Of a DNA stretch of 43,029 nucleotides, positions 1 to 43,029 are shown one piece after another. Position 1 is the stretch's first letter, and every line of letters starts with the position of its first letter. The stretch lies in assembly GCA_033901515.1 (NCBI GenBank), contig GCA_033901515.1_4984.1; one strand, written 5' to 3'. Made by a program: the position numbers and the translations under genes. The notes beneath the pieces were generated by a model. It was not told where the DNA came from and searched no databases. It was given only the letters and a program-made list of their open reading frames with translations. The DNA is from Escherichia coli. Its GTDB lineage: Bacteria > Pseudomonadota > Gammaproteobacteria > Enterobacterales > Enterobacteriaceae.

Positions 1-77
1 AGTTCCCTAAAACCCTCCTACTCCTGTAACATCATTTCTTAATAGCTTTCGAATGAAAGTAAAGGTGAAGGGATAGC
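1..77. repeat. Terminal direct repeat, left copy (identical to 42953..43029)
   Basis: Bases 1-77 (agttccctaaaaccctcctactcctgtaacat...aaaggtgaagggatagc) are repeated exactly at 42953-43029; the match stops at the window edges. Confidence 0.9.
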
Positions 78-6626: not shown

Positions 6627-8950
6627 TATATAGTCCCCCAAGCTTGTCTGTATACAGCGTAATGCAACGCACTATTTAGTAGGGATGTATAGTCCCCCGC
6701 TACGAACGCCTGACTAGCCTCATCCCACTTACGTACCACAGAGTAAGATGCAGCAACGCTGTGAACTTTATAGTAAGCACCTCCTACTAAAATAAACTCC
6801 CCAGCACTTAGTCCGGACGATCCCAATGCTATAACCGTCTCGTTTGCAACTATGCTGTTATATAGAGAGTAGGCTGGACCCCAACCGCTATTGGATGGAA
6901 GGGTCCCTTCCCCGCGTACGAAATTATCCTCCCCTACTGTAGCGGAGTACATGCAGTATGGCGCCTCTGCCTTAAACCTATAGAACCGGGTATTGCCACT
7001 GGATGGGTACCCCCTAGGCGTAGTATTGTATGGGATGCCGTTTGTTTGCACTCCCCGATAATATTGGCGCTCCATATAAGAGTAAACACAGCCATTTGAG
7101 GTCTTAGGCACATACAGGAAGCACCTACCGATATTCTCGTGTGTGTTCCTGCCTATATGTACATAAATCATCCCCCCGGTAGTCGCAATAGAATCTATAC
7201 AGTTACTGAACATGTTTGAGTCAATGTTGCAGTAACCGACAGCGTTCTTCATCCGTACACCTTGGCTTGAGGTCGAGGACGCCCCAATAAATGTATTAGA
7301 TTTAACGTTGACTTGATACGCAGCTGTGTTTATACGGTTTAAGAATACCCCCGAGTTTGAAAACATTTCGAACCTGCAGCCTACTACGTCTGCGTTACCG
7401 CAAGACTCTAGAAACACCCCCACGGATACGTTGCGAGCCACTACTCCGCTGATTACTACACTATTCGCATAGCCTTGAGTAGTGGATGAGCCCTCATTCC
7501 CGAAGATATCTATAGCATTGTCCGTAATATTCTGTAGGATACAATCTGATATGACTGCACCATCTGGACGCTCACACTGTATTCCTATGTACCCAGTGTT
7601 AGTCACTACACAACCACGCACTGTCAGATTAGAGCACCCATAGGTGCCTGCACCTGCCCGCCTAAAGTAGAGGCCCCCGGAAGGACTACTAAGTACGCGC
7701 ACGCCTTCACACACCACGTTAGTGGAGTCGAGTATATTAACGCACGTAATACCAGTACCAGCATTCTGTGCAACGTTACCGTCGAAGGTTATATTTGAGA
7801 TTGTGACAGAATCCGCACTGCCGTCCCAGTTGGTCAATATAGCCCCAGAAGAAGTTCCGCCAACACCGCCATTCAGGGTTATAGTCCCCCCACCGGTGAG
7901 AGTCACCCCAGAGCGTATATTTAGGGCGGACCGACCAGCAGATAGCTCACCAGCAACCGCCAAACTGTTAGAGTTTAGGGATACACGGTAATGCCCGGTG
8001 GCTAGCACCGTAGTAGGACCTGAACCTCTAACAGCATTAATATGTGCAGCATCCAGGGCAGCCTGCAAAGCCATACGCCAATCCCCGGTACTATCCGCAT
8101 AGGCTTCTGGATAGATGAATGGTACTCCACCTAAGTAGTTAAATCCATTATCCGAACTTAGCAGCCCTAAAATACTTGCAACTGCACCTGTGTCAACATC
8201 GGTATCTACACCAATAGTCATATCTACTAAGGTGCCTGCTGGTACAGTTTCTGCGAACGTCACTGTGCCGTTACGGATACTATAAGAATAGCCCGCGGTC
8301 TGAGTTACTCCATTTAACCTAATCTTAGCCTTAGTAAATGGTACTCCTGGGGTAATGGTGTTCGTGTCAGCTGGCACTACAGTCCACCACGGGAAGCTAT
8401 TAGTGTTAGCATTGAAGAACGTCTGCTCTAGGTTGGTAGTGCGTATATCCAGAGCGTCATCTGCAGCTTTGCGAGCAGCTGCCTCTGCGTCAATACGCGC
8501 GTCCAGGCGAGCATCCCCGGCATCAACATACTGCTTATTAGCAGCGTCGCGTGCATCCACAGGGTCACCCAGGTTAGTGATGCGGTAACGGTGCATGTTA
8601 ATATCGCCATAGAAACCCTCGATAGAGCGCCCTTCAACCAGCTCTTGAGCCAGGTGCAGGAACTGCGTATTCTGGGTATCTACGTTACCTTCAATGAACG
8701 GGGCACCACTAGCAAATTCAATGTAGAGGTACTCTCGTGCAGTCTTACGAATAAGAAGCACCACTGTCTCTGCAGACAGTGGGGAGTTCAGACGAATGTT
8801 GGTGGAGCTGGTCCAAGTGAAGGCTGTAGTCTCAGAACCATCTAAGTAAACGTGAATATAAGATTTATCCAGGTACTCGATATCACACTGGATATCCCGA
8901 GTACCTGTAGGCTTTACCGACTCTTGCCAGCTGTATGCCATATTAATCAT
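6626..8950 (-). CDS. Tail fiber / tailspike with T7 gp17-like N-terminal anchor and beta-helix-like body
   Basis: 774 aa; N-terminus (DIEYLDKSYIHVYLDG ... HRYRITNLGDPVDARDAANKQYVD) resembles the T7 gp17 N-terminal tail-attachment domain from memory; remainder is Gly/Ser/Thr/Asn-rich repeats (NITFDGNVAQNAG ...). Confidence 0.75.
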   Translation of the reverse strand: MINMAYSWQESVKPTGTRDIQCDIEYLDKSYIHVYLDGSETTAFTWTSSTNIRLNSPLSAETVVLLIRKTAREYLYIEFASGAPFIEGNVDTQNTQFLHLAQELVEGRSIEGFYGDINMHRYRITNLGDPVDARDAANKQYVDAGDARLDARIDAEAAARKAADDALDIRTTNLEQTFFNANTNSFPWWTVVPADTNTITPGVPFTKAKIRLNGVTQTAGYSYSIRNGTVTFAETVPAGTLVDMTIGVDTDVDTGAVASILGLLSSDNGFNYLGGVPFIYPEAYADSTGDWRMALQAALDAAHINAVRGSGPTTVLATGHYRVSLNSNSLAVAGELSAGRSALNIRSGVTLTGGGTITLNGGVGGTSSGAILTNWDGSADSVTISNITFDGNVAQNAGTGITCVNILDSTNVVCEGVRVLSSPSGGLYFRRAGAGTYGCSNLTVRGCVVTNTGYIGIQCERPDGAVISDCILQNITDNAIDIFGNEGSSTTQGYANSVVISGVVARNVSVGVFLESCGNADVVGCRFEMFSNSGVFLNRINTAAYQVNVKSNTFIGASSTSSQGVRMKNAVGYCNIDSNMFSNCIDSIATTGGMIYVHIGRNTHENIGRCFLYVPKTSNGCVYSYMERQYYRGVQTNGIPYNTTPRGYPSSGNTRFYRFKAEAPYCMYSATVGEDNFVRGEGTLPSNSGWGPAYSLYNSIVANETVIALGSSGLSAGEFILVGGAYYKVHSVAASYSVVRKWDEASQAFVAGDYTSLLNSALHYAVYRQAWGTI

Positions 8951-11900
8951 CTCCGAAGTTATTGATGATAGCTCGCGTAGGTGCGAATTCCTGGATTAAC
9001 GGGACCTGTTTAGTGAAGGTCTGGATATCCATATCCCCAGTAGCCAGGGCTTGCACTGCACCCAGCAGACCAGTGACGTAACCCATAGATGCCAGAGAGT
9101 GGCGCGGTGAGTCCCCAGTGAAGATATCCTGCAGAAGCGAGATACCGCCAATGGCGCTCATACCCATAACTGACTCAGCGACAAGTTTCTGAGTATCGAC
9201 CTCTTTACCGTCCATACCGTGCTTAGCCATAGTTGCTAGAAGCATCAATGGGAACTGGTATGCCATGATGTGTGCAACCCCAATCCACCCAGCATCGTTC
9301 AGCTCTCGGCGCAGAATCTTGTTGGTGGCAGCCAGGGCGAAGCTCTGGTAGCCGACAATTACTTTGCCGATAGGGTTGAACTGGGCGAAGTGTGAGGTCT
9401 CACCGGTACGTACCTGCTGTACCAGGTAGTCCATCATACGCGTACCTACCACCTCAACTTGCATTTGCAGGTCCGGCTGGAACATAGCACCAGGGTTAGC
9501 CTTGTTGGCCGCGATAGCACGGTCCGCAACGTCGCGAGTAAGCCCGAAACGTTCCAGACGCTTAAACGCCTCAGCGTCCCCTTTGAACATCCGCTGGAGC
9601 TCGTCCGCTACAATACCTGAGTTAAGGTTAACCTGCAGTCGATGTACCATACTCATTCCGTTGATGTGACGCGCAGCCTGTCCAATGTTCTGGGTGACGT
9701 TAAACCATGAGGCTTGACGGGTCAGATCCAAGTTATCGTCTGCATAGGTATTCAACCAACGGAAGCGCATCTCCTTCTGAATACTACCACGTAGGATTGC
9801 ATCCAGACGACTAGCCATATCCGGAGTGCGAATAGCTACGGAACCTTCTTTAAACCAAGGCTGCTCACGCATACCACGCAGCACTCGGGACATACCAAAC
9901 TCTTTCAGCGCTAGGGCGATGTCAGTAAGCTGGTACAACCCGGAGTTCTTGAGCATGGTAGCGTTGGCCATGTTACCAGCTGCACGGAGCAGGTCCGGCA
10001 TTTGACCGGCATCGGCTGGTGCCCCACCTAAGATAAAGTCGATGGTGTCATTAACGGTCTTCTCCCACTTACCGGAATCAGCCAGAGCGTGCTTGGACTC
10101 ATTAATCATCGTCTCTAGTGTTTTTAGGTCAGAGACTCCGGCATAAGCCATACCTACACGACCTGACATTCGGTTAGTGTAACCGTGCATAACCTTAGCT
10201 ACATCAGTATCCATCAGATCCTGCATGCGCATAACCTGGCCATCTACGATGTACTCTTTGTCCATGTTGAAGCGGGTACGTTGACGGAGGTTCTTAGCAG
10301 GCGAGGTAGCACCGGATTCTCGGACATTACCTGCCAAGAAACTCTGGATTGCACTCTCGTCTACGCCAGCATTACGCATAACCATGACTACTTCGTCGTT
10401 ACCCATACCGTTGATGAGTTGCTTCCACATAGGACCAGAAGCCGAGGAGCGCCCGTTATAGATACCGTCAACCATCTCCTTAGCAACGCGCTGAACAACC
10501 TCAGGTTCCATAGACGGGTACACATCACGCAATGCCTGGCGGAATAAATCTCGGTAGTTATCCAGGGAGCGACCGTTCGCAATACCTTGGCGCATCTTAT
10601 CGTAGCTGTACTGGCGCGGGAAATAGTAGTCTGATTTAACCAGAGTACCGTCATCCACTAAACCGGCAGCGGTCATGTGATCATGCCACTTACTGGCCCA
10701 ACCAGAGTTGCGATACGCCTCAACAAGCGGAACTAAGTCAGAGTCCGGCAGAGGCACGGGGCGTCCGTTAACCTCAGCACTGTATGCAGAGTCCAGGTAA
10801 CGGCCTAAGCGGTCTTCCAAGTCAGCTCGTGCTGCTCTGAAGTTGCTACGATGGAAGAAGCGGTCCAGGAAACCTACACCCTTATCCTTGAGGGCACCGA
10901 GTATAGCGTCTTCAACTATACTAGCACTAGCATCCATTTCCAAGGTAAGGTTACGCTTAAAGTCCACCACAGACGGTTTACGACCGCCTACAGCAGTAGC
11001 ATCAGATACTAGTAAGCGTGCGAGGTCCTCACTACCCTCTGCGATGTTATCATACAAGGAGAACATAGTGGCGAGCTTACGCTTAGCAGTGTCCATCATA
11101 GCTTGGGCCTGCAAGGCCTCGTTCTTAACTGATGTACCTGCCAAGTCCTGGAAGGACTCACTCCTGAAGCTCTGAGCTTGGTCTGCGTAGTCCTTTGCGG
11201 TCCACTTGACAGCGTCCTCGTACGCGTCCAGAACATCCTCCAGAGCAGACCCCTTGGTGCGAACCCCTAGGGCGTTCATGATGTATTCACCAATCTGGCG
11301 AAGCATGCTTTTACCAGTAGGGGATTTAGTTCTAGAGAGGTACTCTACCCACTCAGGGCTGTCTCCCAGCCCGGCCAGCATTTCGTGCACATCACTTGCA
11401 TAATACTTGAATTTATCACTAAGAGTTGAATCTGCTGCTATTGCAGCGCGCACCTCTTCCAGCTTACTGGCAATTTCCGGATTCTGCTTAATAGCTCTGG
11501 TGGTGGCAGCGTGAATCAGTTCGTGCACTGCTACTCGGCTAGTGTCCGCATCCATAGCACGCAGAGCATCCCCGGCAGTAGTCCAGGTACTTCCGTTCGC
11601 TTTCTTAGGGGCACGTAAAGATACAAAACCCCTATCAGTTGTTGATGCTGGTGAAAACCCGTAGTGGCTACGGTTAGAAGAACCGGCCACCAGTTTAAAA
11701 TCAATGTCCTGTACTGCATCACCCAGGGTGTCCAGGATAGCCTTCTGACCTTTAGATAAGTGTTCAGAGGTCTTGAGGAAACGGACTACATCCTGCGCTT
11801 TCATGTTAACAGCGGCGGTGTTATTTCGGCGAACTTGGATAGGTTCATCCAGTACCTTAGTGAGGATTGTGTCTCCCTCTCCTACTCCTGTAACATTAGC

Positions 11901-12641
11901 ATCCCTCGCTGTACGAGTTGTGGGCGCGTCCGGGTCAAACATAGGCTCACGCCCAGTACGCGCCTTTGCTGCCGCTTTAGCAGCCTTAGACATGTCCCAG
12001 AGCTGGTCTAGTCCAGCTACACCTGCTACCAGAGCAGTGACTGCAGCAGACTGCCCCAACTGGTCCTGCGCATAGACAGCTGTACCTACATCCGCTGCAC
12101 GGATAGCAGTGCGTACTGCTAAGCCAGCACGACCAGCAACACCTGCTGCCGACATCGGGGCCAGGATAAATGGGGCGTCCCCAGCCAACGCACCAGCGAA
12201 CCCAGCTACGGTGTTATCAGACATCTGACGGTCACGGTCACGCTGTTCTAGCATAGCCTGAATGCGGTAATTATAATCATCCAGGGACACCGCCCCGTGC
12301 AAGTAATCAATCTCTTCCTGATTCGGAGTATAGAGCTTAGCACGGGAGTCAGTGCTTAGTTGCTTCTTAGCATCAAAACCCTGCTCTGGAATGAATGCCG
12401 GGGCAGAGGCTTTGCGGATAGCTGCAGCGATGGTGCTATTGCCCATACCAGAAGCAAAGCTCTCTGCAGCTGTAGTAGCAGGAGTCTTGGCCTGCGCTAG
12501 TAAGGAGGCACGCTCCAGTGCATTTAATCCGTCGTCACCGGCATCGTTCCAATCTATACGCGCAGGCGCAGGTTTAAGGGTTGTACCCTTAGCAGAATCC
12601 TTTTCCTGTGGATTCGGTTCTTGGTTCAGAAATTGAGCCAT
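8943..12641 (-). CDS. Internal virion (ejectosome) protein, gp16-like
   Basis: 1232 aa, largest ORF; position after the gp14/gp15-like ORFs as in T7; contains a zincin-like VAVHELIHAA motif. Confidence 0.7.
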   Translation of the reverse strand: MAQFLNQEPNPQEKDSAKGTTLKPAPARIDWNDAGDDGLNALERASLLAQAKTPATTAAESFASGMGNSTIAAAIRKASAPAFIPEQGFDAKKQLSTDSRAKLYTPNQEEIDYLHGAVSLDDYNYRIQAMLEQRDRDRQMSDNTVAGFAGALAGDAPFILAPMSAAGVAGRAGLAVRTAIRAADVGTAVYAQDQLGQSAAVTALVAGVAGLDQLWDMSKAAKAAAKARTGREPMFDPDAPTTRTARDANVTGVGEGDTILTKVLDEPIQVRRNNTAAVNMKAQDVVRFLKTSEHLSKGQKAILDTLGDAVQDIDFKLVAGSSNRSHYGFSPASTTDRGFVSLRAPKKANGSTWTTAGDALRAMDADTSRVAVHELIHAATTRAIKQNPEIASKLEEVRAAIAADSTLSDKFKYYASDVHEMLAGLGDSPEWVEYLSRTKSPTGKSMLRQIGEYIMNALGVRTKGSALEDVLDAYEDAVKWTAKDYADQAQSFRSESFQDLAGTSVKNEALQAQAMMDTAKRKLATMFSLYDNIAEGSEDLARLLVSDATAVGGRKPSVVDFKRNLTLEMDASASIVEDAILGALKDKGVGFLDRFFHRSNFRAARADLEDRLGRYLDSAYSAEVNGRPVPLPDSDLVPLVEAYRNSGWASKWHDHMTAAGLVDDGTLVKSDYYFPRQYSYDKMRQGIANGRSLDNYRDLFRQALRDVYPSMEPEVVQRVAKEMVDGIYNGRSSASGPMWKQLINGMGNDEVVMVMRNAGVDESAIQSFLAGNVRESGATSPAKNLRQRTRFNMDKEYIVDGQVMRMQDLMDTDVAKVMHGYTNRMSGRVGMAYAGVSDLKTLETMINESKHALADSGKWEKTVNDTIDFILGGAPADAGQMPDLLRAAGNMANATMLKNSGLYQLTDIALALKEFGMSRVLRGMREQPWFKEGSVAIRTPDMASRLDAILRGSIQKEMRFRWLNTYADDNLDLTRQASWFNVTQNIGQAARHINGMSMVHRLQVNLNSGIVADELQRMFKGDAEAFKRLERFGLTRDVADRAIAANKANPGAMFQPDLQMQVEVVGTRMMDYLVQQVRTGETSHFAQFNPIGKVIVGYQSFALAATNKILRRELNDAGWIGVAHIMAYQFPLMLLATMAKHGMDGKEVDTQKLVAESVMGMSAIGGISLLQDIFTGDSPRHSLASMGYVTGLLGAVQALATGDMDIQTFTKQVPLIQEFAPTRAIINNFGDD

Positions 12642-23453: not shown

Positions 23454-23475
23454 TCCTACTCCTGTAACATTAAAT
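23454..23475 (-). promoter_or_regulatory. Conserved 17-bp motif also present in the terminal repeat; candidate phage promoter or end-related site
   Basis: Plus 23454-23470 tcctactcctgtaacat is identical to plus 16-32 and 42968-42984; minus strand reads ATGTTACAGGAGTAGGA immediately before the ATG at 23453. Confidence 0.4.
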
Positions 23476-28799: not shown

Positions 28800-29633
28800 T
28801 TAGGCTTGAGGTGCAGCGGGCGCTGCTGGCGCTACAGGAGCTACAGGGGCCGCTGGAGCCACTGGTGCAGCCGGGGCTGCCGGAGCTGCCGGAGCAGCAG
28901 GAGCAGCAGGGGCCGCTGGGGTCTGCATAGACTGAGGACTCGGAACCGAACCGGCATTCAGCATAATATCCAACGCACTGCCTGGGAAGTCAACAGCCTT
29001 GTACATGTCTTCCTGAATCCAGTTTTTACTCTTACCATCGTCCTTGGTACCTTCGATATATAAGCTATCCCAGGTTTCTTTGGTCGGATTGTTCCACAGG
29101 AACAGCTTAATCTCGGAGGCATCCAGAGCCGGCATCTTAATAGGCTCACCGGTGTTCGGGTCGAACTTCGGAATCGGACGGATTGCCGCGAGGTCTACAA
29201 TGTTAGACTTCTTAACTGCTGCGCTGGTGTGCTCATCTACTGGGAATACAAATGCTTGTCCCAGTCGCTGTGCAGCGTGTTTAATGCTGCCATCATAGTT
29301 GAGCTTGTCGAAGAATTTCTTGAAGCCCGCACGCTCAAAGTTGCTGATGGTCATCGGATACGGACGGATACGTTTCACCTCACCGTTAGGGCCATACACT
29401 ACAATCCCGATACGCACATTCGCTGCTGCAGGCTTACCAGTAGGCTTACCGCCCTTGGTCGGCAGGCGCTTACCAATTTCCACATACTCGGTGAAGTAGC
29501 CATAGTACTCACCCTTCGGCAGCAGTACATCCTCGTACGCACCGCCCTGGGCGGTCTCGGTCATATCAACTTCTTGTGTTTTAATCGCAGCAGCAACCAG
29601 GGAGTTCAGAGTGTCCAGTGCATTCATAGTCAT
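28800..29633 (-). CDS. Hypothetical protein with Pro/Ala-repeat C-terminal tail
   Basis: 277 aa; C-terminal about 45 aa is PAAPAAPAAPAAPAAPVAPAAPVAPVAPAAPAAPQA, encoded by imperfect 9-bp tandem repeats at about 28803-28920. Confidence 0.6.
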   Translation of the reverse strand: MTMNALDTLNSLVAAAIKTQEVDMTETAQGGAYEDVLLPKGEYYGYFTEYVEIGKRLPTKGGKPTGKPAAANVRIGIVVYGPNGEVKRIRPYPMTISNFERAGFKKFFDKLNYDGSIKHAAQRLGQAFVFPVDEHTSAAVKKSNIVDLAAIRPIPKFDPNTGEPIKMPALDASEIKLFLWNNPTKETWDSLYIEGTKDDGKSKNWIQEDMYKAVDFPGSALDIMLNAGSVPSPQSMQTPAAPAAPAAPAAPAAPAAPVAPAAPVAPVAPAAPAAPQA

Positions 29634-30667: not shown

Positions 30668-31096
30668 TTAGGCCTCCTTAATAATTTGACTGACGCGAGA
30701 TTGTACTACACCGTATTTCGCAGCAAGCACGTACTGATTAGCGTGTTTAGAACGAGGAACATACTCCCGGCGAATCTGCTCTACAGTAGACTTGGAAATC
30801 TTATGAGCTTCTCGGCCCCTATCTACCTTATCTTGCATGTTGTCTGCCCTGCTGCCCACCAGAAGATGCTCGGGATTAATACAACGGGGATTGTCACATG
30901 AGTGTCTAATCACCTGCCCGTCTATATCCGCATAGGTTATACCGTGGTGGCGGACGTAAACCACTCGATGATATAGGCGCATCTTTCCGTCACGTTTAAC
31001 TAACGCATACCCTCCTTTTAGAAGGCTCCGGCTTTTGCCGTGGTCTATACATTCTGACACTGCATGCCTCTCTTGTGTTGTTCCTACTCGTATCAC
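30668..31096 (-). CDS. HNH endonuclease (free-standing, homing-type)
   Basis: GGYALVKRDGKMRLYHRVVYVRHHG ... VIRHSCDNPRCINPEHLLVGSRADN is an HNH_3-like pattern, with a C-terminal HTH-like segment. Start uncertain: GTG 31096 or GTG 31060 (RBS GAGAGG). Confidence 0.75.
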   Translation of the reverse strand: MIRVGTTQERHAVSECIDHGKSRSLLKGGYALVKRDGKMRLYHRVVYVRHHGITYADIDGQVIRHSCDNPRCINPEHLLVGSRADNMQDKVDRGREAHKISKSTVEQIRREYVPRSKHANQYVLAAKYGVVQSRVSQIIKEA

Positions 31097-31223
31097 ATTA
31101 ATTCTCGGTAAATCACGGAATCAAGCCAGAGTCAACAAATAATTTTATTTAATTATCTACTTGACCCTGGTTAATTCTCATGTTACCCTAACCCCCCTAC
31201 ACCACCCAAGGGTCCACCTATCA

Positions 31224-31445
31224 TTACTCCACTATAAGTTTGTACTCCCCGGAGAAGAAGGTAATACCGTCCCCAGGCTTCTCTGAGTTATTATCTGGAT
31301 TGATTAATTCCACCTCCCAGAGTTCAGGGTCATAAGATATCACTCGATGCTGAGTGCCTGGTGCAAAGTAGTCACGATGTCTGGGCTCTAATGGTTCCGG
31401 CCCAAGTCCTAGTATTTCCACAATACTGCCTGGTTTAATAGTCAT
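31224..31445 (-). CDS. Hypothetical protein (73 aa)
   Basis: ATG overlaps the DNA polymerase stop (ATGA). Confidence 0.5.
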   Translation of the reverse strand: MTIKPGSIVEILGLGPEPLEPRHRDYFAPGTQHRVISYDPELWEVELINPDNNSEKPGDGITFFSGEYKLIVE

Positions 31446-33832
31446 TCTACTTTCTCCTTACTGTACATACTCATACCCATTTCAGCTTCCGCCGGGAACG
31501 GGACCTCACCAATGATGCCGTAGTTAGGCCAGAGCTGGTGGATACGCTTAGGTGCATCCTCCATACACTGCTTAACCAACAGGCTCGCCTCTCTGCCTAC
31601 TTCCGGATTAGCACTATCCAGATACAATGCATCGTGCACGTTCGTAATCAAGCACACCTGATTATCAAACCAATCACGTGCCAGCATTGCACGCAGAACC
31701 ATACCAGCTGCTACCGCCATCAGGAAGAACGCCTCGCCCTGACACCAGTAGTTAGCCATCTCGGTTTCCTTGTAGTCCATTACCTTCTGCTTACGCTGCC
31801 CAGGGACGACCTCCTTCCATTGCTCCTTCTGGCGGAAGCTGTAGCGTGCTCCTGCTGGACTAGTCCAGGTGCCGATGCGGTAGATGCGATAACTGCCATC
31901 ATCCGCTTGCTCCCGGTACATACGCCCCGCTGCCCCAGTGCGCTCTACCTCTTCCTTGACAACAGCGCGGAAGCCAATTGTTTGCGGGAACAGCGCAGCC
32001 TCGTTGTCCAAGAAAGCCTGTGCGAATTCCACCGTACATCCAGCAGCAAACGCAATCCCCTTAGCCGTAGCGCCATACTGGGCTGCAAAACTAGGAGCCT
32101 TAATACCTGTACGCATTGCCTTCCAAACCGGATGCAGCTCATGCTTCTTGTTGTGGCAGCGATCATATACTTCTTCATATGGTAATTTCTCACGGAAAGC
32201 TAGGCGGTAACAGTGCATATCGGTACCTGCCTGCAGCAACCCTAGTAGCTTAGTGTCTCCGGTGTGTACGCAGGACATGACCACTTCCAGCGCCGAGTAG
32301 TCAACTTCAGTGATGCGTCCGTTATCGCCGAATCGGCTGGTGAATACCTGCTTCACCTTGGATTTAGCCACCCCATCCCCATCCTCATCCGGGCGGGGTA
32401 GGTTCTGCAGGTTCGGGTTAGAACTGCTAAGGCGCCCAGTTACAGTGGCGCTGGTATTCAAACGGTGATGGATAATACCTGAACCGTCTTCTCGTTCTGG
32501 GATTACGTATTGCAGCATCCCCTTGCGCTCTTTGACACGTCCCTCAGAATCAAGAACCTCCCTTAAGTAGTAAGTTCCGGTGTCCTTCTCCAGAGCACCC
32601 AGCTCGTTCACCAATCGACAGAACTCAAATCCATGACGTGCTAAGGCTTCCATTGCATCTGTGCTGGTGCTGTAGACTGGTGTCCCATCCTGCAGGCACC
32701 GGGCTTGCCTGAACTCTCCACGCTCAGCATACTTCTCTCGAAGTACTTCAGGGAGTTCTTGGATGTTAACCAGGCCCGGACAGAAGTAAAGGTCGTCCTC
32801 CCACTTAAGTTTCTCCTCCTCTGTATCCATACGGAATACTTTGGGAAGTCCCTTGTTCTTACCGGACTTGTATAGCGCTCTCGGATACGTCCACTCCGGC
32901 TGCCAGTCGGACACATCAATGTACTGTACAGTTCCGTTGACGTCTGCTAAGTAGGCGTCGTACTTAACGTACTGCGGAGGGTCATAAGGAACCTTCTTGC
33001 GGTACTTGATAGGTCCACCGTATACCAGTGCAGACATATGAAAGTCCGAGCCGAAGTTGAAATCCAGTGTCTCCGGCAAGTCCTTCGGTATGTACTGCTG
33101 CAGCTCCTGTTTAATCTCCAGGATACGCTGCTCCTGCTCCTCTTGGTTCTTGCGAGCAATAGGCATATTCACGAACAGACCAAACCATTCACAGTATGCC
33201 CAAGCCAGCAGCGCGTCCATGCGTTCCCACACGTACTGCATCTGATTACGCTGGGCGAACGTAGCGCACTGGCCGTAGAAGCACAGGGCTGTGTTCGGGA
33301 TATCCCCGTTAACTAGGTAGTCGTGCAGCAGCACCGGGTCAATCTGGGAGGTTAACACGCCCTGCTCCCAGAGAATCTTAACCCCATCTACTTTGTGCGT
33401 ACCACCATACTTAGGAGCCGTCTCGTCCAGTGACGGATACATGCTCTGAAAGTCCGAGGCGATGTATTCCCCGTGCATTGTGCAGAACACCCTGCCGCCG
33501 CGCTTGAGGAAGGCTTCGAACTGTTGTCTCTGGTACGTGAGGAACCAGGAGATTTCGTAGGCGGCATTGTGCGCAACAATAAGCCAGCAGTCCTCCGGGA
33601 TATTGAGCCATCCCGCAGGTCCTCCTGCACTGTTCGCACGAATAAAGTCCTCTCGGGACTCGTAGCGTACTGCCTGTGTAATACCCACAGTTGTTGTTCC
33701 GTCTGCCTGCGTCGTATCAATGCGCCACGCTGACTCCACAACGTAGTTATCCGGGCAGTACGGGCTTGCTTTAGAGCCGTAATATTCATGGTTCTCTGTC
33801 TCTAAGTCAATGTGCATTATACTGGTTGTCAT
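31442..33832 (-). CDS. DNA polymerase, family A (T7 gp5-like) with 3'-5' exonuclease domain
   Basis: 796 aa; Exo I HIDLETEN; motif B RTGIKAPSFAAQYG; motif C ITNVHDALYLD; RBS GGAGGT. Confidence 0.9.
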   Translation of the reverse strand: MTTSIMHIDLETENHEYYGSKASPYCPDNYVVESAWRIDTTQADGTTTVGITQAVRYESREDFIRANSAGGPAGWLNIPEDCWLIVAHNAAYEISWFLTYQRQQFEAFLKRGGRVFCTMHGEYIASDFQSMYPSLDETAPKYGGTHKVDGVKILWEQGVLTSQIDPVLLHDYLVNGDIPNTALCFYGQCATFAQRNQMQYVWERMDALLAWAYCEWFGLFVNMPIARKNQEEQEQRILEIKQELQQYIPKDLPETLDFNFGSDFHMSALVYGGPIKYRKKVPYDPPQYVKYDAYLADVNGTVQYIDVSDWQPEWTYPRALYKSGKNKGLPKVFRMDTEEEKLKWEDDLYFCPGLVNIQELPEVLREKYAERGEFRQARCLQDGTPVYSTSTDAMEALARHGFEFCRLVNELGALEKDTGTYYLREVLDSEGRVKERKGMLQYVIPEREDGSGIIHHRLNTSATVTGRLSSSNPNLQNLPRPDEDGDGVAKSKVKQVFTSRFGDNGRITEVDYSALEVVMSCVHTGDTKLLGLLQAGTDMHCYRLAFREKLPYEEVYDRCHNKKHELHPVWKAMRTGIKAPSFAAQYGATAKGIAFAAGCTVEFAQAFLDNEAALFPQTIGFRAVVKEEVERTGAAGRMYREQADDGSYRIYRIGTWTSPAGARYSFRQKEQWKEVVPGQRKQKVMDYKETEMANYWCQGEAFFLMAVAAGMVLRAMLARDWFDNQVCLITNVHDALYLDSANPEVGREASLLVKQCMEDAPKRIHQLWPNYGIIGEVPFPAEAEMGMSMYSKEKVE

Positions 33833-33860
33833 ACTACTTATACCTCCTACACTGTGTACC

Positions 33861-33890
33861 TACATAGCGCCCTCTAGGAAGGCGCTAGGG
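33861..33890 (-). promoter_or_regulatory. Conserved hairpin element C, upstream of the DNA polymerase
   Basis: Plus tacatagcgccctctaggaaggcgctaggg; inverted repeat tagcgcc / ggcgcta; shares the CATAGCGCCC ... GCGCTA vocabulary with the elements at 41011 and 41805. Confidence 0.45.
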
Positions 33891-33893
33891 AAG

Positions 33894-34229
33894 TCACTTG
33901 ATTGGTGGAATATCAATAGACTCTAGCAGCGGCTGCTGCAGTAGGTAAGTGTTATACTCCTGTATCGCCTGCACCGCCAAGTCCCGCAGTCGCAACGCTT
34001 TGTTTACGTCCCAATCAGTACGAGAGAACACTGCACTGGGGGATACTAGGGAGAATGCCTCTGGGTTAAAGTGAAAGGTAGGTTCCTTTGATTCGACCAG
34101 CTGTATCATCGCCTCGCTTGCGTTACGAACGGTGTATACACCACCCCTATCCACACCGGTACGGTAAGCTGTCTCACGGGCTATGTCAGCATCTCGCCGT
34201 ACTTTATCACCAATTTTAAAATTACACAT
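33894..34229 (-). CDS. Hypothetical protein (about 111 aa) with N-terminal K(I/V)GDKV ... YTV module
   Basis: I prefer ATG 34227-34229 (MCNFKIGDKV..., RBS GAGGGG); shares an N-terminal module with the 36480..36968 protein. Confidence 0.5.
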   Translation of the reverse strand: MCNFKIGDKVRRDADIARETAYRTGVDRGGVYTVRNASEAMIQLVESKEPTFHFNPEAFSLVSPSAVFSRTDWDVNKALRLRDLAVQAIQEYNTYLLQQPLLESIDIPPIK

Positions 34230-35502
34230 TAATCTGCCCCTCATTAAATCGGCATCTACCTGGGTCGAATGCTACCTCGAATTGCAGTAGCGACTCCTTA
34301 CCTGATAGCGCCATCTTGTTCTTAGGTGTACTGATACCGCGGATGTTTTGCATGTGCGGCTGCTCGTTCCTGTCCAAGCACCCCATCATAATTGCCAAGT
34401 CCAAAGCACCTTGTACGCCAATCTTACTCTGCTTCATTGCCGTGAGCGGCGGAAACAGTAGGTTGTAACCTTCGAGTGAAAGCTGCATAGTACCGATAAC
34501 TGCACAATCGTTCTCGCACCCCAGGATACGTAGCTCCTGCCACTTCGCCTCTAGATTCTGGTGTTCACTCTCCATAGTACCGCCACGGATATTAGCCACC
34601 ATGTCTATGATTATTACCGCCGGGCGCATCTCTTCCATGAGCGTAGAGATTTGAGCCATAGTAAGAGAGTGTGCCGCCTTGATACGAATACGGTCGGCCC
34701 TGCCTACTTTCTCCAGATAGGCTGGCACAAACTCTTGCCTACTGTGCCTGTCCTTAATCTCAGCCAGAGTCCAATGCAGCGCCGCTTGATATACCCTCGG
34801 CACTGTACGCGTCGCCGGGCCTTCGTTAACCAACCACAGAATCGGGCGGTCCCCGTATACTTCAGGTTGTTGCTGCATCTGCTTAGCAAAGTCCACGGCA
34901 ATAGCAGCGAGTAGACTAGTTTTACCAGAATCAACAGGGGCAGCAACGGCGATGCAATCACCGCCGCGAAGCCCACGAATGCTATTAGACAGTTGCTCAA
35001 ACACACCCAGTTTAAGTCCGCCACTTTCATCAGTCGCGGCAAGTATTTCATCAACACTTCCGCTCTCCCATTCCAGTAGCGAATCATGAACAGCAGCACC
35101 ATCACCGTACTTGCGCTGGAGGTGTTTCATCTCCAGCAGATAATCAACCTCCTCGCCGTCTTGGTAGCGCTGCGTTAGCGCCGCCACCTCCCCGCTGTAT
35201 GCTAACTCATTCAGTGTCTGAACAATCCCCACCACAGAATCCTGTGGCACGGCTTGTACTCCCCGCATAAGCTCGTCCATAATCACCCGCTCTTCACGGG
35301 ATAGATGTCCAGCACGGAGGTTGAGCATACTCTGCATCGCATCCCACTGCACCTCCTGGTGCTCCGGGTACGTATTCCAGTACAACCCCACCCAGTCCAG
35401 TAGGTTCGAGGTGTCCGGCGCTAGCATGGACTTGGGTATCTGCTCTCGCAGTCGGTTCCAGACCTTCTGCGTGCACATCGCCTTAACTACTATTAGGTCC
35501 AA
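34222..35502 (-). CDS. DnaB-like replicative DNA helicase
   Basis: 426 aa; Walker A AAPVDSGKTSLL; apparent TTG start with RBS GGAGG. Confidence 0.75.
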   Translation of the reverse strand: MDLIVVKAMCTQKVWNRLREQIPKSMLAPDTSNLLDWVGLYWNTYPEHQEVQWDAMQSMLNLRAGHLSREERVIMDELMRGVQAVPQDSVVGIVQTLNELAYSGEVAALTQRYQDGEEVDYLLEMKHLQRKYGDGAAVHDSLLEWESGSVDEILAATDESGGLKLGVFEQLSNSIRGLRGGDCIAVAAPVDSGKTSLLAAIAVDFAKQMQQQPEVYGDRPILWLVNEGPATRTVPRVYQAALHWTLAEIKDRHSRQEFVPAYLEKVGRADRIRIKAAHSLTMAQISTLMEEMRPAVIIIDMVANIRGGTMESEHQNLEAKWQELRILGCENDCAVIGTMQLSLEGYNLLFPPLTAMKQSKIGVQGALDLAIMMGCLDRNEQPHMQNIRGISTPKNKMALSGKESLLQFEVAFDPGRCRFNEGQINV

Positions 35503-36284
35503 GTTAATGCCTCCAGTATCTCTTTGATTTCTGCGTCCTTAGGATCCGCAGCGAAGTGGTGTTCTCGGCACTGCATGAACGGGCGCAGTGCTCGGCGTGC
35601 TGCTGCTACCCCAGCATGCCCCGCTGGGTCGTTGTCCAACATTAGAATCACTTCAGGGCGATTCTGAATCAGCCAGGCCCTTAACTGCGTGGGCAAGCGT
35701 GTACCCAGCATAGCTATAGCCTGCACGTTCAACGCACTGTAGCTCGTAACTGCGTGCTGTATCTTCAGGGCTGAGAGTAAGTCCTCTGTGAGCACGACCT
35801 TTAGAGGAGCGCCCGCAGCTACACCCGGTGCTACGGCAGGTCCCACGGCAGCGAAGGGTATTGGCTGGCCGTACATTACCCACTTCGGTTGCTGTCGGGC
35901 ATGAACAGCACGGCCCAGTACAGCACCCCCGACACGGAATATTATCCGCTGTTTCTCTTTGCTCCATTCTGCATCCCCCACCATTTCAGGCATGATTCCT
36001 TTTGAAGCAAGGAATCCGTAAATAAAACTCTGCGTTTCCGCAGGCGCTTGGCTAATGCAAATTGCATCTGCAGGTGCAGAGGGCTGCACCCTCGGCTCTT
36101 CCTGTAACTGTATGCGCTGGTACTGCTTGCGCTCCTTGCCTACCTGTTTGCAGCGGTGGCAATAGTATTCCCAGGCATCCGGGTTATTGTAGAGCACCCC
36201 GGCGGCGTCCCTGCCGCAGCACCGAAAGCGTGCCCTCTGCCCCACGGCCAGGCGCTTGCACGCTCTAAGCCAGGGCTGGTCCAT
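35493..36284 (-). CDS. DNA primase (zinc-ribbon plus TOPRIM)
   Basis: 263 aa; N-terminal Cys cluster FRCCGRD ... YYCHRCKQ; TOPRIM-like VVLTEDLLSALK and ILMLDNDPAGHAG. Confidence 0.7.
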   Translation of the reverse strand: MDQPWLRACKRLAVGQRARFRCCGRDAAGVLYNNPDAWEYYCHRCKQVGKERKQYQRIQLQEEPRVQPSAPADAICISQAPAETQSFIYGFLASKGIMPEMVGDAEWSKEKQRIIFRVGGAVLGRAVHARQQPKWVMYGQPIPFAAVGPAVAPGVAAGAPLKVVLTEDLLSALKIQHAVTSYSALNVQAIAMLGTRLPTQLRAWLIQNRPEVILMLDNDPAGHAGVAAARRALRPFMQCREHHFAADPKDAEIKEILEALTWT

Positions 36285-36463
36285 TACTTAATCTCAATGC
36301 TATTAGCGTATGCTATGTCATCCCATAAGATTTCTTCTTCGGGCACATCCACCATCCGCCCATCTTCCAGACGGTATATGTCGCCATCCTATACCTTTAT
36401 AGCCCAAAAACTGCGTGATCCCCAAGTGAACGGAATACCAACCACAATGCTCTTAGGTGGCAT
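36284..36463 (-). pseudogene. Short ORF interrupted by a single in-frame TAG (possible pseudogene, recoding or error)
   Basis: Minus-strand frame MPPKSIVVGIPFTWGSRSFWAIKV-TAG-DGDIYRLEDGRMVDVPEEEILWDDIAYANSIEIK, terminating as TAATG on the primase start; TAG is plus cta at 36389-36391. Confidence 0.3.
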
Positions 36464-36479
36464 TTTGTACGTGATAATT

Positions 36480-36968
36480 TTATGCATTTGCTTTCTCCTT
36501 ACGTTTGATATCCATAGCCATGCGACGAAGATCGTGTGCCAGTTGCAGGGCTGCGTCGGGACTCATATTAATACCGATCTCCTGCTCTGCCCGGGGGCTG
36601 TTCTTTCTAGGAACTATTCCGATGTAGAGTAGGTTCTCATCAGTAAAACTACATCTATCTAGGACTAACCGCTGGTCATTGCCACGGTTGCGCTTGGAGT
36701 TCATGTAGGCTACGCTATCCGGAACTGGCGGCAGCTCGTCGTCCGGCTCTTGGTACAGCTCAAAGTCTTCAGCACGCCAGGGGGTGGGGTCACAATAACG
36801 CTGCATACCGTCAAGCTGCAACCAGTCACCACTAGCACTAATGTTTGTTACAGTATAATAATCCTTGACGCCTTGGTTATGTCGCAAGAGTGTCATAAAC
36901 CCGGTACCTGCTGCGCCTACTGCTACTACTTTATCACCAACTTTAAACTTAGATTTAAACTTAGACAT
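36480..36968 (-). CDS. Hypothetical protein (about 162 aa) with N-terminal K(I/V)GDKV ... YTV module
   Basis: I prefer ATG 36966-36968 (MSKFKSKFKVGDKVV..., RBS GGAGGG); the tool start is TTG 36974. Confidence 0.5.
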   Translation of the reverse strand: MSKFKSKFKVGDKVVAVGAAGTGFMTLLRHNQGVKDYYTVTNISASGDWLQLDGMQRYCDPTPWRAEDFELYQEPDDELPPVPDSVAYMNSKRNRGNDQRLVLDRCSFTDENLLYIGIVPRKNSPRAEQEIGINMSPDAALQLAHDLRRMAMDIKRKEKANA

Positions 36969-36970
36969 AA

Positions 36971-39714: not shown

Positions 39715-39760
39715 TTTCTTTGTCTCCGGTGTTAGTAGTATCTCATCATACCTTAAAAGT

Positions 39761-40105: not shown

Positions 40106-40107
40106 AT

Positions 40108-40311
40108 TTAATCCTTGAATACTACGTTGCGGGCCACGAGTGTGCTATTGTCGCTGGATACTATACCGCCAACTGTGTGGCTTGACTGCAACCACCGCTG
40201 CAGGGGATTGCTATAGTGTTCAGCGTGCTCGTGCAGCGTACCATACAGCGGCACCCGGTACAGTAACCCGTTCGGGCGCTTGTACAAGTCATACTCAACT
40301 AGTTCATTCAT
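40108..40311 (-). CDS. Hypothetical early protein (67 aa)
   Basis: ATG 40309-40311; packed between neighbours. Confidence 0.4.
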   Translation of the reverse strand: MNELVEYDLYKRPNGLLYRVPLYGTLHEHAEHYSNPLQRWLQSSHTVGGIVSSDNSTLVARNVVFKD

Positions 40312-40487: not shown

Positions 40488-40506
40488 ACCCACCTCAATA
40501 CTTACC

Positions 40507-40984: not shown

Positions 40985-41010
40985 TTGAAACCTCGTTGTT
41001 AACGGTATTC

Positions 41011-41037
41011 ACATAGCGCCCCGCAGGACGCTATAGG
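41011..41037 (-). promoter_or_regulatory. Conserved hairpin element A
   Basis: Plus acatagcgccccgcaggacgctatagg; minus-strand RNA CCUAUAGCG-UCCUGCGGGG-CGCUAUGUG forms a stem of about 9 bp. Confidence 0.45.
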
Positions 41038-41172
41038 CTTACCATTATACGTATTCTCCCAATCCCTCATAGTGCCACCTGTTATGGCGGCCCCGGGTTG
41101 GCACATCAAAGGCGTCAGAGTCGTTAGCTGCCGGAATCAATGCCCACCACTTGATAGCTTGAATCTTATAAA

Positions 41173-41836: not shown

Positions 41837-41840
41837 GTAA

Positions 41841-42056
41841 TTAGCGTCCGAACTGCCCAGCAGTATACCAGCCTTGTGGCGCTCTGCTACTACCTTTTGT
41901 TTTGGTTTTACCGCGTACATTCGTGCTGAATGTAGCGGATTGCTTCATCCGCATATACCCAGCACGATTCAGCGCATCCCGGCGTTTTCTCAATTCAGGA
42001 CCGGATAACTTCTCCAGCCCAGCAAATTGTTGCGCTAACTTCTCACGATATTTCAT
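41841..42056 (-). CDS. First early gene, small basic protein (about 71 aa)
   Basis: I prefer ATG 42054-42056 with strong RBS GAGGAGG (the tool start is TTG 42071, inside the RBS); Arg/Lys-rich. Confidence 0.45.
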   Translation of the reverse strand: MKYREKLAQQFAGLEKLSGPELRKRRDALNRAGYMRMKQSATFSTNVRGKTKTKGSSRAPQGWYTAGQFGR

Positions 42057-42324
42057 TGCGTACCTCCTCAAAGTTAATGGTTAACGCCCTAACAGAATCC
42101 AGTAGGACGCTAACTTTTAACCTTGTTACCCACTGCACAACCGTGGAACCTGTGGTTCAGGTCTCGGCGCTATTCTTTTAAGGGGCAGCGCCTCAGCGCC
42201 CCAGCCGTTTGTCATCTCGGCCCTTGATGTTACTTCTTTACTGCACTGATTATCTAGGATTGGTCGTCATCGTACCAGTCAAGGTACTGGGCCTCCCCGC
42301 AAACCAGCTTACTACTTTGTTCGC

Positions 42325-42474: not shown

Positions 42475-42510
42475 GATTCAATCTAACTTATGTTCTTCGC
42501 GGTGTCAACT
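42475..42510 (-). promoter_or_regulatory. Candidate sigma70-type early promoter
   Basis: Minus strand TTGACA (plus 42503-42508), 17-nt spacer, TAGATT (plus 42480-42485). Confidence 0.25.
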
Positions 42511-42724: not shown

Positions 42725-42787
42725 CTAGGGATAGCACTAGGGATAGCGCTATACAGCCAATGCTAACCAATACTAGCCAATGCTAAC
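42725..42787. repeat. Short direct repeats near the genome end (tagggatagc x2; agccaatgctaac x2)
   Basis: Direct reading of 42721-42790; GATAGC-type words also recur at 71-112 and 172-178. Confidence 0.7.
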
Positions 42788-42904
42788 TAATACCATCTAG
42801 CACTGCATAGAGCAGCACGCAGTGACGTAACGTAAGTGAAGTCACGGAGTGATGCGGTGACTATGTAGGTAATGCTTACTCCCTACGGTCGTAACATAGG
42901 GCAT

Positions 42905-42952: not shown

Positions 42953-43029
42953 AGTTCCCTAAAACCCTCCTACTCCTGTAACATCATTTCTTAATAGCTT
43001 TCGAATGAAAGTAAAGGTGAAGGGATAGC
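42953..43029. repeat. Terminal direct repeat, right copy
   Basis: Exact 77-bp copy of 1..77. Confidence 0.9.

What the first reader, a model, noticed from the sequence alone, without database searches (positions are those of the whole stretch)
33861..33890. Conserved hairpin element upstream of the DNA polymerase, related to two early-region elements
Element C shares the CATAGCGCCC ... GCGCTA vocabulary with the elements at 41011-41037 and 41805-41836 and forms a 7-bp stem (UAGCGCC/GGCGCUA) with a loop containing UCCU. A possible half-site AGGACGCTA also lies at 42104-42112, about 50 nt upstream of the first early gene. None matches sigma70 -35/-10 hexamers, so these are more likely RNA processing sites (comparable to RNase III sites between T7 early genes) or operator sites for a phage or host factor.
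Basis: partly seen in the sequence, partly recalled or inferred. Interest (0 to 1): 0.45.

Follow-up and report, generated by a model that had tools for sequence, protein, structure and literature searches.

The report
Conserved RNase III-like RNA hairpins between genes
The flagged hairpin is one of four related, about 45-57-nt two-part RNA hairpins between genes of a KP34-like Klebsiella/E. coli phage; they are built like the RNase III cutting sites of phage T7 and most likely mark where the host enzyme cuts long phage mRNAs, which is an ordinary job but would settle what a motif once mis-called a "phage promoter" does.

Summary
The window is a complete Drulisvirus (KP34-like) genome with all genes on the minus strand. 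Each has a variable lower stem, a small internal loop with a C x U mismatch, a 10-bp or longer sequence-conserved upper stem, and a short loop in A-C.

All 96 unique copies from 77 related genomes fold better as sense RNA. The stems show compensatory changes. Each element sits between a stop codon and the next ribosome-binding site.

T7 RNase III sites fold into the same design. Element C carries the published E. coli RNase III determinants in register, including the required U.G pair.

A and B were published in 2015 as a "putative phage promoter"; in 2019 KP34 RNA polymerase was shown not to use them.

Best explanation (about 0.6): host RNase III processing signals. No cleavage data exist. 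A T7-site model does not detect them, so they work like T7 sites but are not sequence members. This is a new member of a known kind, of modest interest.

The parts
33854..33897 (-). Element C (the finding), a two-part hairpin. Lower stem GUGACUU (33897..33891) pairs with AGGUaCAC (33861..33854). Internal loop: C, a lone C-G pair, then a C x U mismatch. The 10-bp upper stem is 33887..33878 with 33874..33865, and the loop is 33877..33875. The stop codon UGA of the upstream ORF (33896..33894) lies in the 5' arm. The Shine-Dalgarno AGGAGG of the DNA polymerase gene follows at 33848..33843.
   Evidence: Folds at -23.6 kcal/mol on the sense strand against -18.2 on the antisense strand. Present in 243 phage records. 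Base-pair table of 36 unique copies. Flanking genes vary.
40999..41048 (-). Element A. Lower stem AUAAUGGUA/UACCGUUAA; internal loop AG/AA plus a lone C-G pair plus a C x U mismatch; upper stem UAUAGCGUCC/GGGCGCUAUG; tetraloop UGCG. The stop codon UAA (41047..41045) of a 43-aa ORF lies in the 5' arm.
   Evidence: Covariance model R1 gives 69 bits, E 4e-18. Fold -27.7 kcal/mol, z -4.8. ORF. Published as a 'putative phage promoter' (PMC4411677).
41794..41845 (-). Element B. Lower stem AAUUAC/GUAAUU; the same internal loop as A; upper stem UAUAGCAUCC/GGGUGCUAUG, where the G-C pair of A is replaced by A-U. The stop codon UAA (41843..41841) of the first early gene lies in the 5' arm.
   Evidence: R1 gives 61.3 bits. 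Fold. Covariation.
42069..42125 (-). Lower stem CAAGGUUAA/UUAACUUUG; 2x2 internal loop; upper stem GUUAGCGUCCUA.../...UAGGGCGUUAAC; a longer loop. It lies just upstream of the Shine-Dalgarno sequence of the first early gene.
   Evidence: R1 gives 14.3 bits, E 0.16. Eleven unique variants in relatives, with compensatory changes; L019 and L020 have an almost perfect stem of about 23 bp.
33862..33864 (-). 3' side of the internal loop of element C (U G U). The predicted RNase III cut is between 33862 and 33861. The corresponding predictions are 41009|41008 for A and 41804|41803 for B.
   Evidence: Inference only. It transfers the 2-nt 3'-overhang geometry of T7 R1.1 (PMC1540722), using the shared C x U mismatch as the reference point.
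31442..33832 (-). DNA polymerase gene, immediately downstream of element C in this genome.
   Evidence: ORF. It recovers polymerase-encoding loci in 77 related contigs.
42480..42508 (-). Sigma-70-type early promoter (TTGACA-17-TAGATT) upstream of elements D, B and A. It supplies transcripts that run through them.
   Evidence: The same sequence is listed as the host promoter in PMC4411677 and is annotated in KP34.
42968..42986 (-). A true KP34-type phage RNA polymerase promoter (TGATGTTACAGGAGTA). Further copies are at 23472..23454 and 11898..11880. It is unrelated in sequence to the hairpin elements.
   Evidence: Repeat families D3 and D5. Promoter defined experimentally in PMC6834552.

Best explanation
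Elements C, A, B and D are structured RNA signals in the long sense-strand early and middle transcripts of the phage. They most likely serve as processing sites for host RNase III.

Each element folds into a two-part hairpin totalling about 20 bp. RNase III would bind the 10-bp upper stem and cut in the 3' side of the small internal loop, as it does at T7 R1.1. The cut would separate the upstream message, which keeps the hairpin as a protective 3' end, from the downstream message, whose ribosome-binding site starts a few nucleotides later.

Shown here: the RNA structure, its sense-strand specificity, its covariation, its placement between genes, and its match to the T7-site design and to RNase III determinants. 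Inferred: that RNase III is the enzyme, the position of the cut, and the effect on mRNA stability or translation.
For: 1. Structure. All three elements fold into the two-part hairpin, and they are more stable on the sense strand: -23.6, -27.7 and -22.3 kcal/mol against -18.2, -16.1 and -14.3. The same holds for 96 of 96 unique copies from 77 relatives, with means of -22.6 and -16.5. With DNA energy parameters the hairpins are weak, at -8 to -10 kcal/mol.

2. Covariation. On 46 A/B sequences, 90.8% of cells are paired, against 25-43% when the partners are slid. Eleven pairs change on both sides. Lower-stem sequences differ completely between copies yet stay complementary. Two U.G wobble pairs are near-invariant; on the other strand they would be A.C mismatches.

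3. Placement. Every element lies between a stop codon, which sits inside the 5' arm, and the next Shine-Dalgarno sequence, whatever the flanking genes are.

4. Same design as T7 sites. Sites R0.3, R0.5, R1, R1.1, R4.7 and R18.5 fold as a variable lower stem, a 4/5-nt internal loop, a conserved upper stem of about 10 bp and a 3-5-nt loop.

5. Determinants (PMC1540722). The C x U mismatch next to the upper stem is present in 91 of 91 copies, the same juxtaposition as the pyrimidine pair the paper reports at pb4 of R1.1. Base pair 2 is A-U in all copies, so there is no G/C antideterminant at pb2. Base pair 8 is U.G in 53 of 55 A/B copies and 36 of 36 C copies; this is db2, which the paper calls stringently required. 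Element C also has G-C at pb1 and U-A at db1.

6. Interchangeability. Pectobacterium phage Khlen (L063) and an Erwinia phage Zoomie-like contig (L075) carry a KP34-type element and a T7-consensus-type element in different intergenic gaps of one early region.

7. Two-part hairpins are enriched on the sense strand in 19 distant relatives, 37 against 5.

8. The elements are not promoters or terminators.
Against: - There is no experimental cleavage or RNA-end data for any Drulisvirus in the papers searched.
- A model built from T7 sites scores A at only 14.3 bits (E 0.89) and C at 10.1 bits (E 9). Sequence relationship to T7 sites is therefore not shown.
- Elements A and B deviate from the canonical pb1 (U-A instead of G-C) and db1 (C-G instead of U-A). 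In the minimal substrate, all distal-box substitutions that were examined weakened binding (PMC1540722).
- The upper stem and internal loop are conserved in sequence across genera with about 55% polymerase identity. As far as I recall, RNase III does not need that much sequence conservation, so a second, sequence-specific partner may be involved.
- Some phages tolerate a broken lower stem, for example L021 A and the L010 B/A hybrid.
- The T7 site coordinates used come from my memory of Dunn and Studier 1983. They are supported by the folds and by the model recovering a site at R6.5, which was not used to build it.
Confidence: 0.6

Rival explanations
1. The hairpins are RNA-level binding sites for some other partner. 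Candidates are a phage early protein acting as a translational operator or antiterminator, another ribonuclease, or no protein at all (a passive stabiliser that blocks 3' exonucleases). RNase III cutting would not be the main function.
For: The upper stem, the internal loop AGCC/UGAA and the flanking bases are almost invariant, even in Pectobacterium phages with about 55% polymerase identity. That is more sequence constraint than double-stranded RNA recognition alone would explain. The UNCG-type tetraloops (UACG, UGCG) make very stable hairpins. The position just upstream of Shine-Dalgarno sequences would suit translational control.
Against: No candidate binding protein was identified; the flanking early proteins match only PHROG families of unknown function. 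The variable lower stem together with a fixed 10-bp upper stem and the U.G at base pair 8 fits RNase III determinants specifically (PMC1540722). T7 sites show comparable unexplained sequence conservation.
Confidence: 0.2
2. The elements act at the DNA level. They could be a palindromic operator for a dimeric DNA-binding protein, a replication or priming signal, a site of single-strand nicks as suggested in 2015, or an extruded hairpin promoter like those of phage N4.
For: The core is an imperfect palindrome. PMC4411677 raised localized nicks as a possibility. The 2019 in vitro test used a linear PCR fragment, which would not reveal a promoter that depends on supercoiling or single-stranded DNA. 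The repeats do recombine: L010 and L047 carry a B/A hybrid.
Against: Two conserved wobble positions are mismatches on the other strand and in duplex symmetry. The lower stems covary in sequence, which a fixed protein operator would not need. As single-stranded DNA the hairpins are weak. An N4-type promoter hairpin forms on the template strand, which is the less stable strand here. The elements always have the orientation and position of a unit between two genes.
Confidence: 0.08
3. The elements are promoters for the phage RNA polymerase (the 2015 proposal) or for host RNA polymerase.
For: They are the longest repeated intergenic motif in the early region. This was the basis of the original prediction (PMC4411677).
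Against: KP34 RNA polymerase produced no RNA from a fragment carrying the motif. Its real promoter is T(A/G)ATGTTACAGGAGTA (PMC6834552), which is present elsewhere in the window. No sigma-70-like hexamer pair overlaps the elements.
Confidence: 0.03

Closest known systems
RNase III processing signals of phage T7 (R0.3, R0.5, R1, R1.1, R1.3, R4.7, R18.5)
   Same: Both lie between genes on the sense strand of long transcripts. Both have a variable lower stem, a small internal loop with a C x U juxtaposition and a possible lone C-G pair, a sequence-conserved upper stem of about 10 bp, and a 3-5-nt loop. Both have several copies in the early region, including one ahead of the first gene (D here, R0.3 in T7). 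Element C shares 6 of 10 upper-stem base pairs with R1.1, including the proximal-box and distal-box positions (PMC1540722).
   Different: The conserved sequences differ: UAUAGCRUCC/GGGYGCUAUG and AGCC/UGAA here, against AAGGUCRCU/AGUGGCCUU and ACUC/UAUGA in T7. A covariance model of T7 sites does not detect the elements significantly. Cleavage has not been shown. In these phages the early and middle regions are thought to be transcribed by host polymerase, because the phage polymerase gene lies late in that region.
'Putative phage promoter' motif AGCCTATAGCGTCCTACGGGGCGCTATGTGAA of Kp34likevirus (Eriksson et al. 2015, PMC4411677)
   Same: Elements A and B of this window are this motif, at the same two early-region positions.
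   Different: The 2015 paper treated it as a linear DNA motif with two copies. Here it is shown to be the centre of a longer covarying RNA hairpin. Two more family members were found: C in 243 phage records and D. The motif also occurs outside Drulisvirus. The promoter reading was refuted in vitro (PMC6834552).
Minimal E. coli RNase III substrate microR1.1 and its proximal, middle and distal boxes (Pertzev and Nicholson 2006, PMC1540722)
   Same: There is an 11-bp distance from the cut to the loop. pb4 is weak or non-canonical, pb2 is A-U, and db2 is U.G with the U on the 5' strand. All are found in register in elements A, B and C. Element C also has the canonical pb1 G-C and db1 U-A.
   Different: A and B have U-A at pb1 and C-G at db1, and all have U.G or U-A where pb3 prefers A-U. 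Reactivity cannot be predicted from these rules alone.
Lambda nut/boxB and other antitermination or operator hairpins
   Same: They are small conserved RNA hairpins downstream of early promoters that are read by a protein.
   Different: boxB is a 5-bp stem with a purine-rich pentaloop next to a boxA sequence. Nothing comparable is present, and no N-like protein was identified. This comparison rests on my own knowledge and was not tested.
Phage N4 virion RNA polymerase hairpin promoters
   Same: A T7-family polymerase recognises a short DNA hairpin with conserved stem and loop bases.
   Different: The N4 hairpins have a 5-7-bp stem and a 3-nt loop on the template strand. Here the structure is longer, has two parts, and is more stable on the sense strand.

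Membership tests
T7-type RNase III processing signal | Lies between genes on the transcribed sense strand of a polycistronic message | tested here: met
   All four elements lie between a stop codon and the next Shine-Dalgarno sequence on the coding strand.
T7-type RNase III processing signal | Two-part hairpin of about 20 bp: lower stem, small internal loop, upper stem of about 10 bp, short loop | tested here: met
   Folds, with covariation. T7 sites folded the same way.
T7-type RNase III processing signal | Proximal-box and distal-box determinants of E. coli RNase III in register (pb2 A-U/U-A, pb1 G-C, db2 U.G, db1 U-A, no G/C at pb4) | tested here: inconclusive
   Element C meets pb4, pb2, pb1, db2 and db1. 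A and B meet pb4, pb2 and db2 but not pb1 or db1 (against PMC1540722).
T7-type RNase III processing signal | Sequence and structure similarity to T7 sites, scored with a covariance model built from 7 T7 sites | tested here: not met
   R2 scores A at 14.3 bits (E 0.89) and C at 10.1 bits (E 9). The same model finds T7 R6.5, which was not used to build it, at 43.5 bits, and sites in L075, L063 and L062.
T7-type RNase III processing signal | Site-specific cleavage by RNase III in vivo or in vitro | not testable with these tools
   No data were found in the papers searched.
KP34-type phage RNA polymerase promoter | Match to T(A/G)ATGTTACAGGAGTA and transcription by KP34 RNA polymerase | tested here: not met
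   The sequence is unrelated; the true promoters are at 42986..42968, 23472..23454 and 11898..11880. A fragment carrying the motif was inactive in vitro (PMC6834552).
Sigma-70 promoter | -35 and -10 hexamers with 16-18 nt spacing | tested here: not met
   No site overlaps any element in the scan of 33000-43029.
Intrinsic (rho-independent) terminator | G+C-rich hairpin followed by a run of U | tested here: not met
   No terminator-like site was found at the elements. The tails read UGUAGGUAC and UGUGAAUAC.
Any Rfam family | Score at or above the family's gathering threshold | tested here: not met
   There were no matches in the whole window.
N4-type hairpin promoter | Stable short hairpin on the template DNA strand | tested here: not met
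   With RNA parameters the template (+) strand is much less stable. With DNA parameters both strands fold weakly: A, B and D are weaker on the + strand and C is about equal on the two strands.

The most novel reading that the evidence does not exclude
The near-invariant upper stem and internal loop are shared by Klebsiella, E. coli, Pectobacterium and Erwinia phages of different genera. They could be the recognition site of a still unidentified, conserved phage-encoded RNA-binding protein, or a specialised mode of host factor recruitment. Such a factor would coordinate early and middle gene expression, for example by antitermination, timed translational control, or gating of RNase III cutting. 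On this reading the resemblance to RNase III substrates would be only part of the story.
Probability: 0.12. Interest if true: 0.65.

Novelty: new member of a known kind. Interest (0 to 1): 0.36.

Why it matters
Drulisvirus phages are among the most commonly isolated Klebsiella therapy candidates, and KP34 RNA polymerase is being developed for RNA manufacture. Even so, their early and middle gene regulation is essentially unmapped. The one conserved regulatory motif noted in the genus has had no function since its promoter assignment failed in 2019.

Reading it as an RNase III-type processing signal gives a concrete, cheap test: map RNA ends in wild-type and rnc-deficient hosts, and cut the transcripts in vitro. 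It also marks natural boundaries between expression units, which is useful for phage engineering.

It further suggests that T7-style mRNA processing is general across distant Autographiviridae, with sequence families that have diverged and are interchangeable.

Tried and rejected
- A strict structural descriptor (perfect 10-bp upper stem plus a perfect 6-bp lower stem) found A and B plus two other sense-strand hairpins in the window. It missed C because of the bulge in its lower stem, and it found only 3 of 10 T7 sites. Loosened, it fell to noise: 9 hits against a mean of 4.1 in shuffles. I use it only for the sense/antisense contrast.
- Model R1, built from A and B, does not find C because the conserved sequence sits 2 nt out of register relative to the structure.
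- MAFFT aligned C to A/B by sequence rather than by structure, so C was analysed separately.
- The scan of bacterial genomes for the motif returned hits in unrelated taxa at roughly the number expected by chance for that pattern length. It says nothing about host copies.
- The in vivo RNase III scoring matrix of Altuvia et al. could not be applied, because its supplementary table is not held.
- Literature searches for Drulisvirus transcript mapping, or for an RNase III proposal for KP34-like phages, found nothing.
- Rfam has no matching family.
- The promoter, terminator and N4-type hairpin promoter readings were considered and rejected; see the membership tests.

Full report
**What the window is.** All long ORFs are on the minus strand. 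Bases 1-77 repeat at 42953-43029. A 5-kb query around the polymerase matches 256 phage records, mostly Klebsiella phages and one record named Drulisvirus, at 80-95% identity. The window is therefore a complete KP34-like (Drulisvirus, Autographiviridae) genome shown in reverse orientation. Everything below is read on the minus (sense) strand.

**Checking the observation.** The shared motif is real.

The 'half-site' at 42104-42112 is one arm of a fourth hairpin, D, at 42069-42125. D is conserved upstream of the first early gene in relatives, with compensatory changes, and in L019 and L020 it forms an almost perfect stem of about 23 bp.

**What was already known.** Elements A and B are the motif AGCCTATAGCGTCCTACGGGGCGCTATGTGAA. 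Eriksson et al. 2015 listed it as a 'putative phage promoter', two copies per genome, and mentioned nick sites as an alternative (PMC4411677). Lu et al. 2019 found that KP34 RNA polymerase makes no RNA from a fragment carrying this motif. They showed that the real promoter is T(A/G)ATGTTACAGGAGTA (PMC6834552). That promoter is present in the window at 42986..42968 (repeated at 34..16), 23472..23454 and 11898..11880. I found no later proposal for the motif's function, and the KP34 reference record does not annotate it.

**Anatomy.** I fetched 77 related loci through the DNA polymerase, with identities from 95% down to 53%, and collected 96 unique copies.

Elements A and B have this layout:
- a lower stem of 6-9 bp whose sequence varies;
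- a 2x2 internal loop, AG opposite AA;
- a lone C-G pair;
- a C x U mismatch;
- a 10-bp upper stem, UAUAGCRUCC/GGGYGCUAUG;
- a tetraloop, most often UACG, UAUG or UGCG.

Element C has a lower stem with one bulge, then C x U, C-G, C x U, a 10-bp upper stem and a triloop.

All 96 copies are more stable on the sense strand, with means of -22.6 and -16.5 kcal/mol. With DNA energy parameters the structures are weak.

On a gap-free alignment of 46 A/B copies, 90.8% of cells are paired, against 25-43% when the partners are slid. Eleven pairs change on both sides, and the lower-stem pairs switch between wholly different sequences in different copies. Much of this covariation is between paralogous copies, so the number of independent events is small. 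Within-ortholog compensatory changes do exist, for example L007 with AAUUAC/GUAAUU changed to AGUUAC/GUAACU.

Two U.G pairs are near-invariant. They would be mismatches on the other strand.

**Context.** Each element fills a short gap between genes. The stop codon of the upstream ORF lies inside the 5' arm of the lower stem: UGA at 33896..33894 for C, UAA at 41047..41045 for A, and UAA at 41843..41841 for B. A Shine-Dalgarno sequence follows a few to a few dozen nucleotides downstream.

Element C is present in 243 phage records, but its neighbours change. In KP34 the upstream gene is the helicase, while here it is an extra 116-aa ORF. Downstream, the polymerase follows directly here, while elsewhere one to three small ORFs or an HNH endonuclease gene come first. 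The element is therefore a self-contained unit and not a feature of the polymerase gene. Copy number varies from 2 to 4 among the A/B type. L010 and L047 carry a B/A hybrid left by recombination between copies.

**Comparison with T7.** I folded the T7 RNase III sites. Their coordinates came from my memory of Dunn and Studier 1983, because the RefSeq record omits them. Sites R0.3, R0.5, R1, R1.1, R4.7 and R18.5 all show the same layout:
- a variable lower stem;
- an internal loop, ACUC opposite UAUGA;
- a conserved upper stem of 9-10 bp, AAGGUCRCU./.AGUGGCCUU;
- a 3-5-nt loop.

R1.3 folds as an almost continuous stem. This is the design seen here.

Pertzev and Nicholson 2006 (PMC1540722) define the E. 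coli RNase III determinants on the R1.1 upper stem:
- pb4, next to the cut, is a U-C pair in R1.1, and G-C or C-G there blocks catalysis;
- pb3 is A-U;
- pb2 is A-U or U-A, and G-C or C-G there blocks binding;
- pb1 is G-C;
- db2 is U.G, described as stringently required;
- db1 is U-A.

The paper also reports that 11 bp between the cut and the loop is the minimum for significant reactivity.

I counted upper-stem base pairs from the internal loop. R1.1 reads AU AU GC GC UG CG AU UG UA CG. Element C reads UA AU GC CG GC CG CG UG UA CG and has a C x U mismatch next to base pair 1. So pb4, pb2, pb1, db2 and db1 are all canonical in element C, in all or nearly all of 36 unique copies. Elements A and B read UG AU UA AU GC CG (GC or AU) UG CG CG, with the same C x U mismatch. 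They satisfy pb4, pb2 and db2 (U.G in 53 of 55 copies) but not pb1 or db1.

The conserved sequence of C is shifted by 2 nt relative to A and B, yet the U.G pair stays at base pair 8 in both, and in D as well. That points to selection on its distance from the internal loop.

I transferred the 2-nt 3'-overhang geometry from R1.1 (U40 A41 U42^G43). This predicts cuts at 33862|33861 for C, 41009|41008 for A and 41804|41803 for B. These positions are inference only.

**Membership versus mechanism.** A covariance model built from seven T7 sites recovers T7 R6.5, which was not used to build it, at 43.5 bits. It scores element A at only 14.3 bits (E 0.89) and element C at 10.1 bits (E 9). The elements are therefore not sequence members of the T7 family, and the claim is that they work like it.

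The same model does find T7-consensus-like sites in the early regions of more distant relatives: L075, which is close to Erwinia phage Zoomie (31.6 bits), L063, which is Pectobacterium phage Khlen (24.5 bits), and L062. L063 and L075 also carry a KP34-type element in another intergenic gap of the same early region. The two sequence families thus occupy equivalent positions in one genome.

In relatives with about 70% polymerase identity, a two-part hairpin of unrelated sequence sits about 0.2-1.3 kb upstream of the polymerase start, and in L040 and L074 it lies in a gap between genes. Across 19 distant loci such hairpins number 37 on the sense strand and 5 on the antisense strand.

**Rivals.**
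- A different RNA-binding partner, or a purely stabilising role, remains possible. The strong sequence conservation across genera favours this somewhat.
- DNA-level roles are disfavoured by the wobble pairs, by the covarying lower stems and by the weak DNA folds.
- Promoter roles are excluded by published experiment and by the scans.
- Rfam holds nothing similar.

**Verdict.** It is a new sequence family of a long-known kind of signal. It resolves a small open question, the function of the 'Kp34likevirus promoter' motif. Interest is modest.

Noticed in passing
window 1-77 and 42953-43029: The two ends of the window are identical, so the window is a whole linear genome with part of its direct terminal repeat on both ends. 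KP34 has a 216-bp repeat.
   Followed up: partly
window 42690-42950: The non-coding left-end region (in phage orientation) is full of short direct repeats: TAGGGATAGCAC/TAGGGATAGCGC, CCAATGCTAAC twice, and TAGTGAATAC three times. It also contains a two-part hairpin at 42802..42761. These resemble the repeat arrays near the ends of T7-like genomes.
   Followed up: no
window 31082-31169 (minus strand): An A+T-rich two-part hairpin (31169..31127) is followed by a degenerate copy of the phage promoter, TAATGTGATACGAGTA (31100..31082; 4 mismatches to the 16-nt promoter). It lies just upstream of an HNH endonuclease gene (30668..31096) and looks like a mobile cassette carrying its own weak promoter.
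   Followed up: partly
window 11880-11898 (minus strand): A perfect KP34 strong promoter, TAATGTTACAGGAGTA, lies inside the 1232-aa virion protein ORF (8943..12641). This resembles the second strong promoter that Lu et al. report at nt 33721-33736 of KP34.
   Followed up: no
window 28801-28919: A repeat with a 9-nt period lies at the 3' end of the 277-aa ORF (28800..29633) and encodes an Ala/Pro-rich tail. Its length and sequence vary between relatives (seen in the output).
   Followed up: no
L010 1259-1278 and L047: These contigs have a single hybrid element with the 5' flank of B and the 3' flank of A. The 191-aa early gene between them has been deleted by recombination between the repeats, and the hybrid's lower stem no longer pairs.
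   Followed up: partly
L048 3122-3172 and L057 3252-3302: A subgroup of Drulisvirus contigs, with polymerase 78-86% identical to the window's, keeps element C. It has only the 5' half of element B, fused to unrelated sequence, and no intact A or B copy within 10 kb upstream of the polymerase.
   Followed up: no
L045 3580-3626, L063 969-1013, L075 2900-2945: Several distant relatives share a conserved lower stem, GCGUGAUU/AAUCAUGC, with different upper stems. This is the reverse of the T7 and KP34 pattern, where the upper stem is conserved and the lower stem varies.
   Followed up: no
window 33894-34244 (minus strand): This 116-aa ORF (PHROG 19629, unknown function) lies between the helicase gene and element C. 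KP34 has no such ORF; there the helicase gene ends directly at the element. The element's 5' arm, with its in-frame stop codon, is kept in both arrangements.
   Followed up: partly
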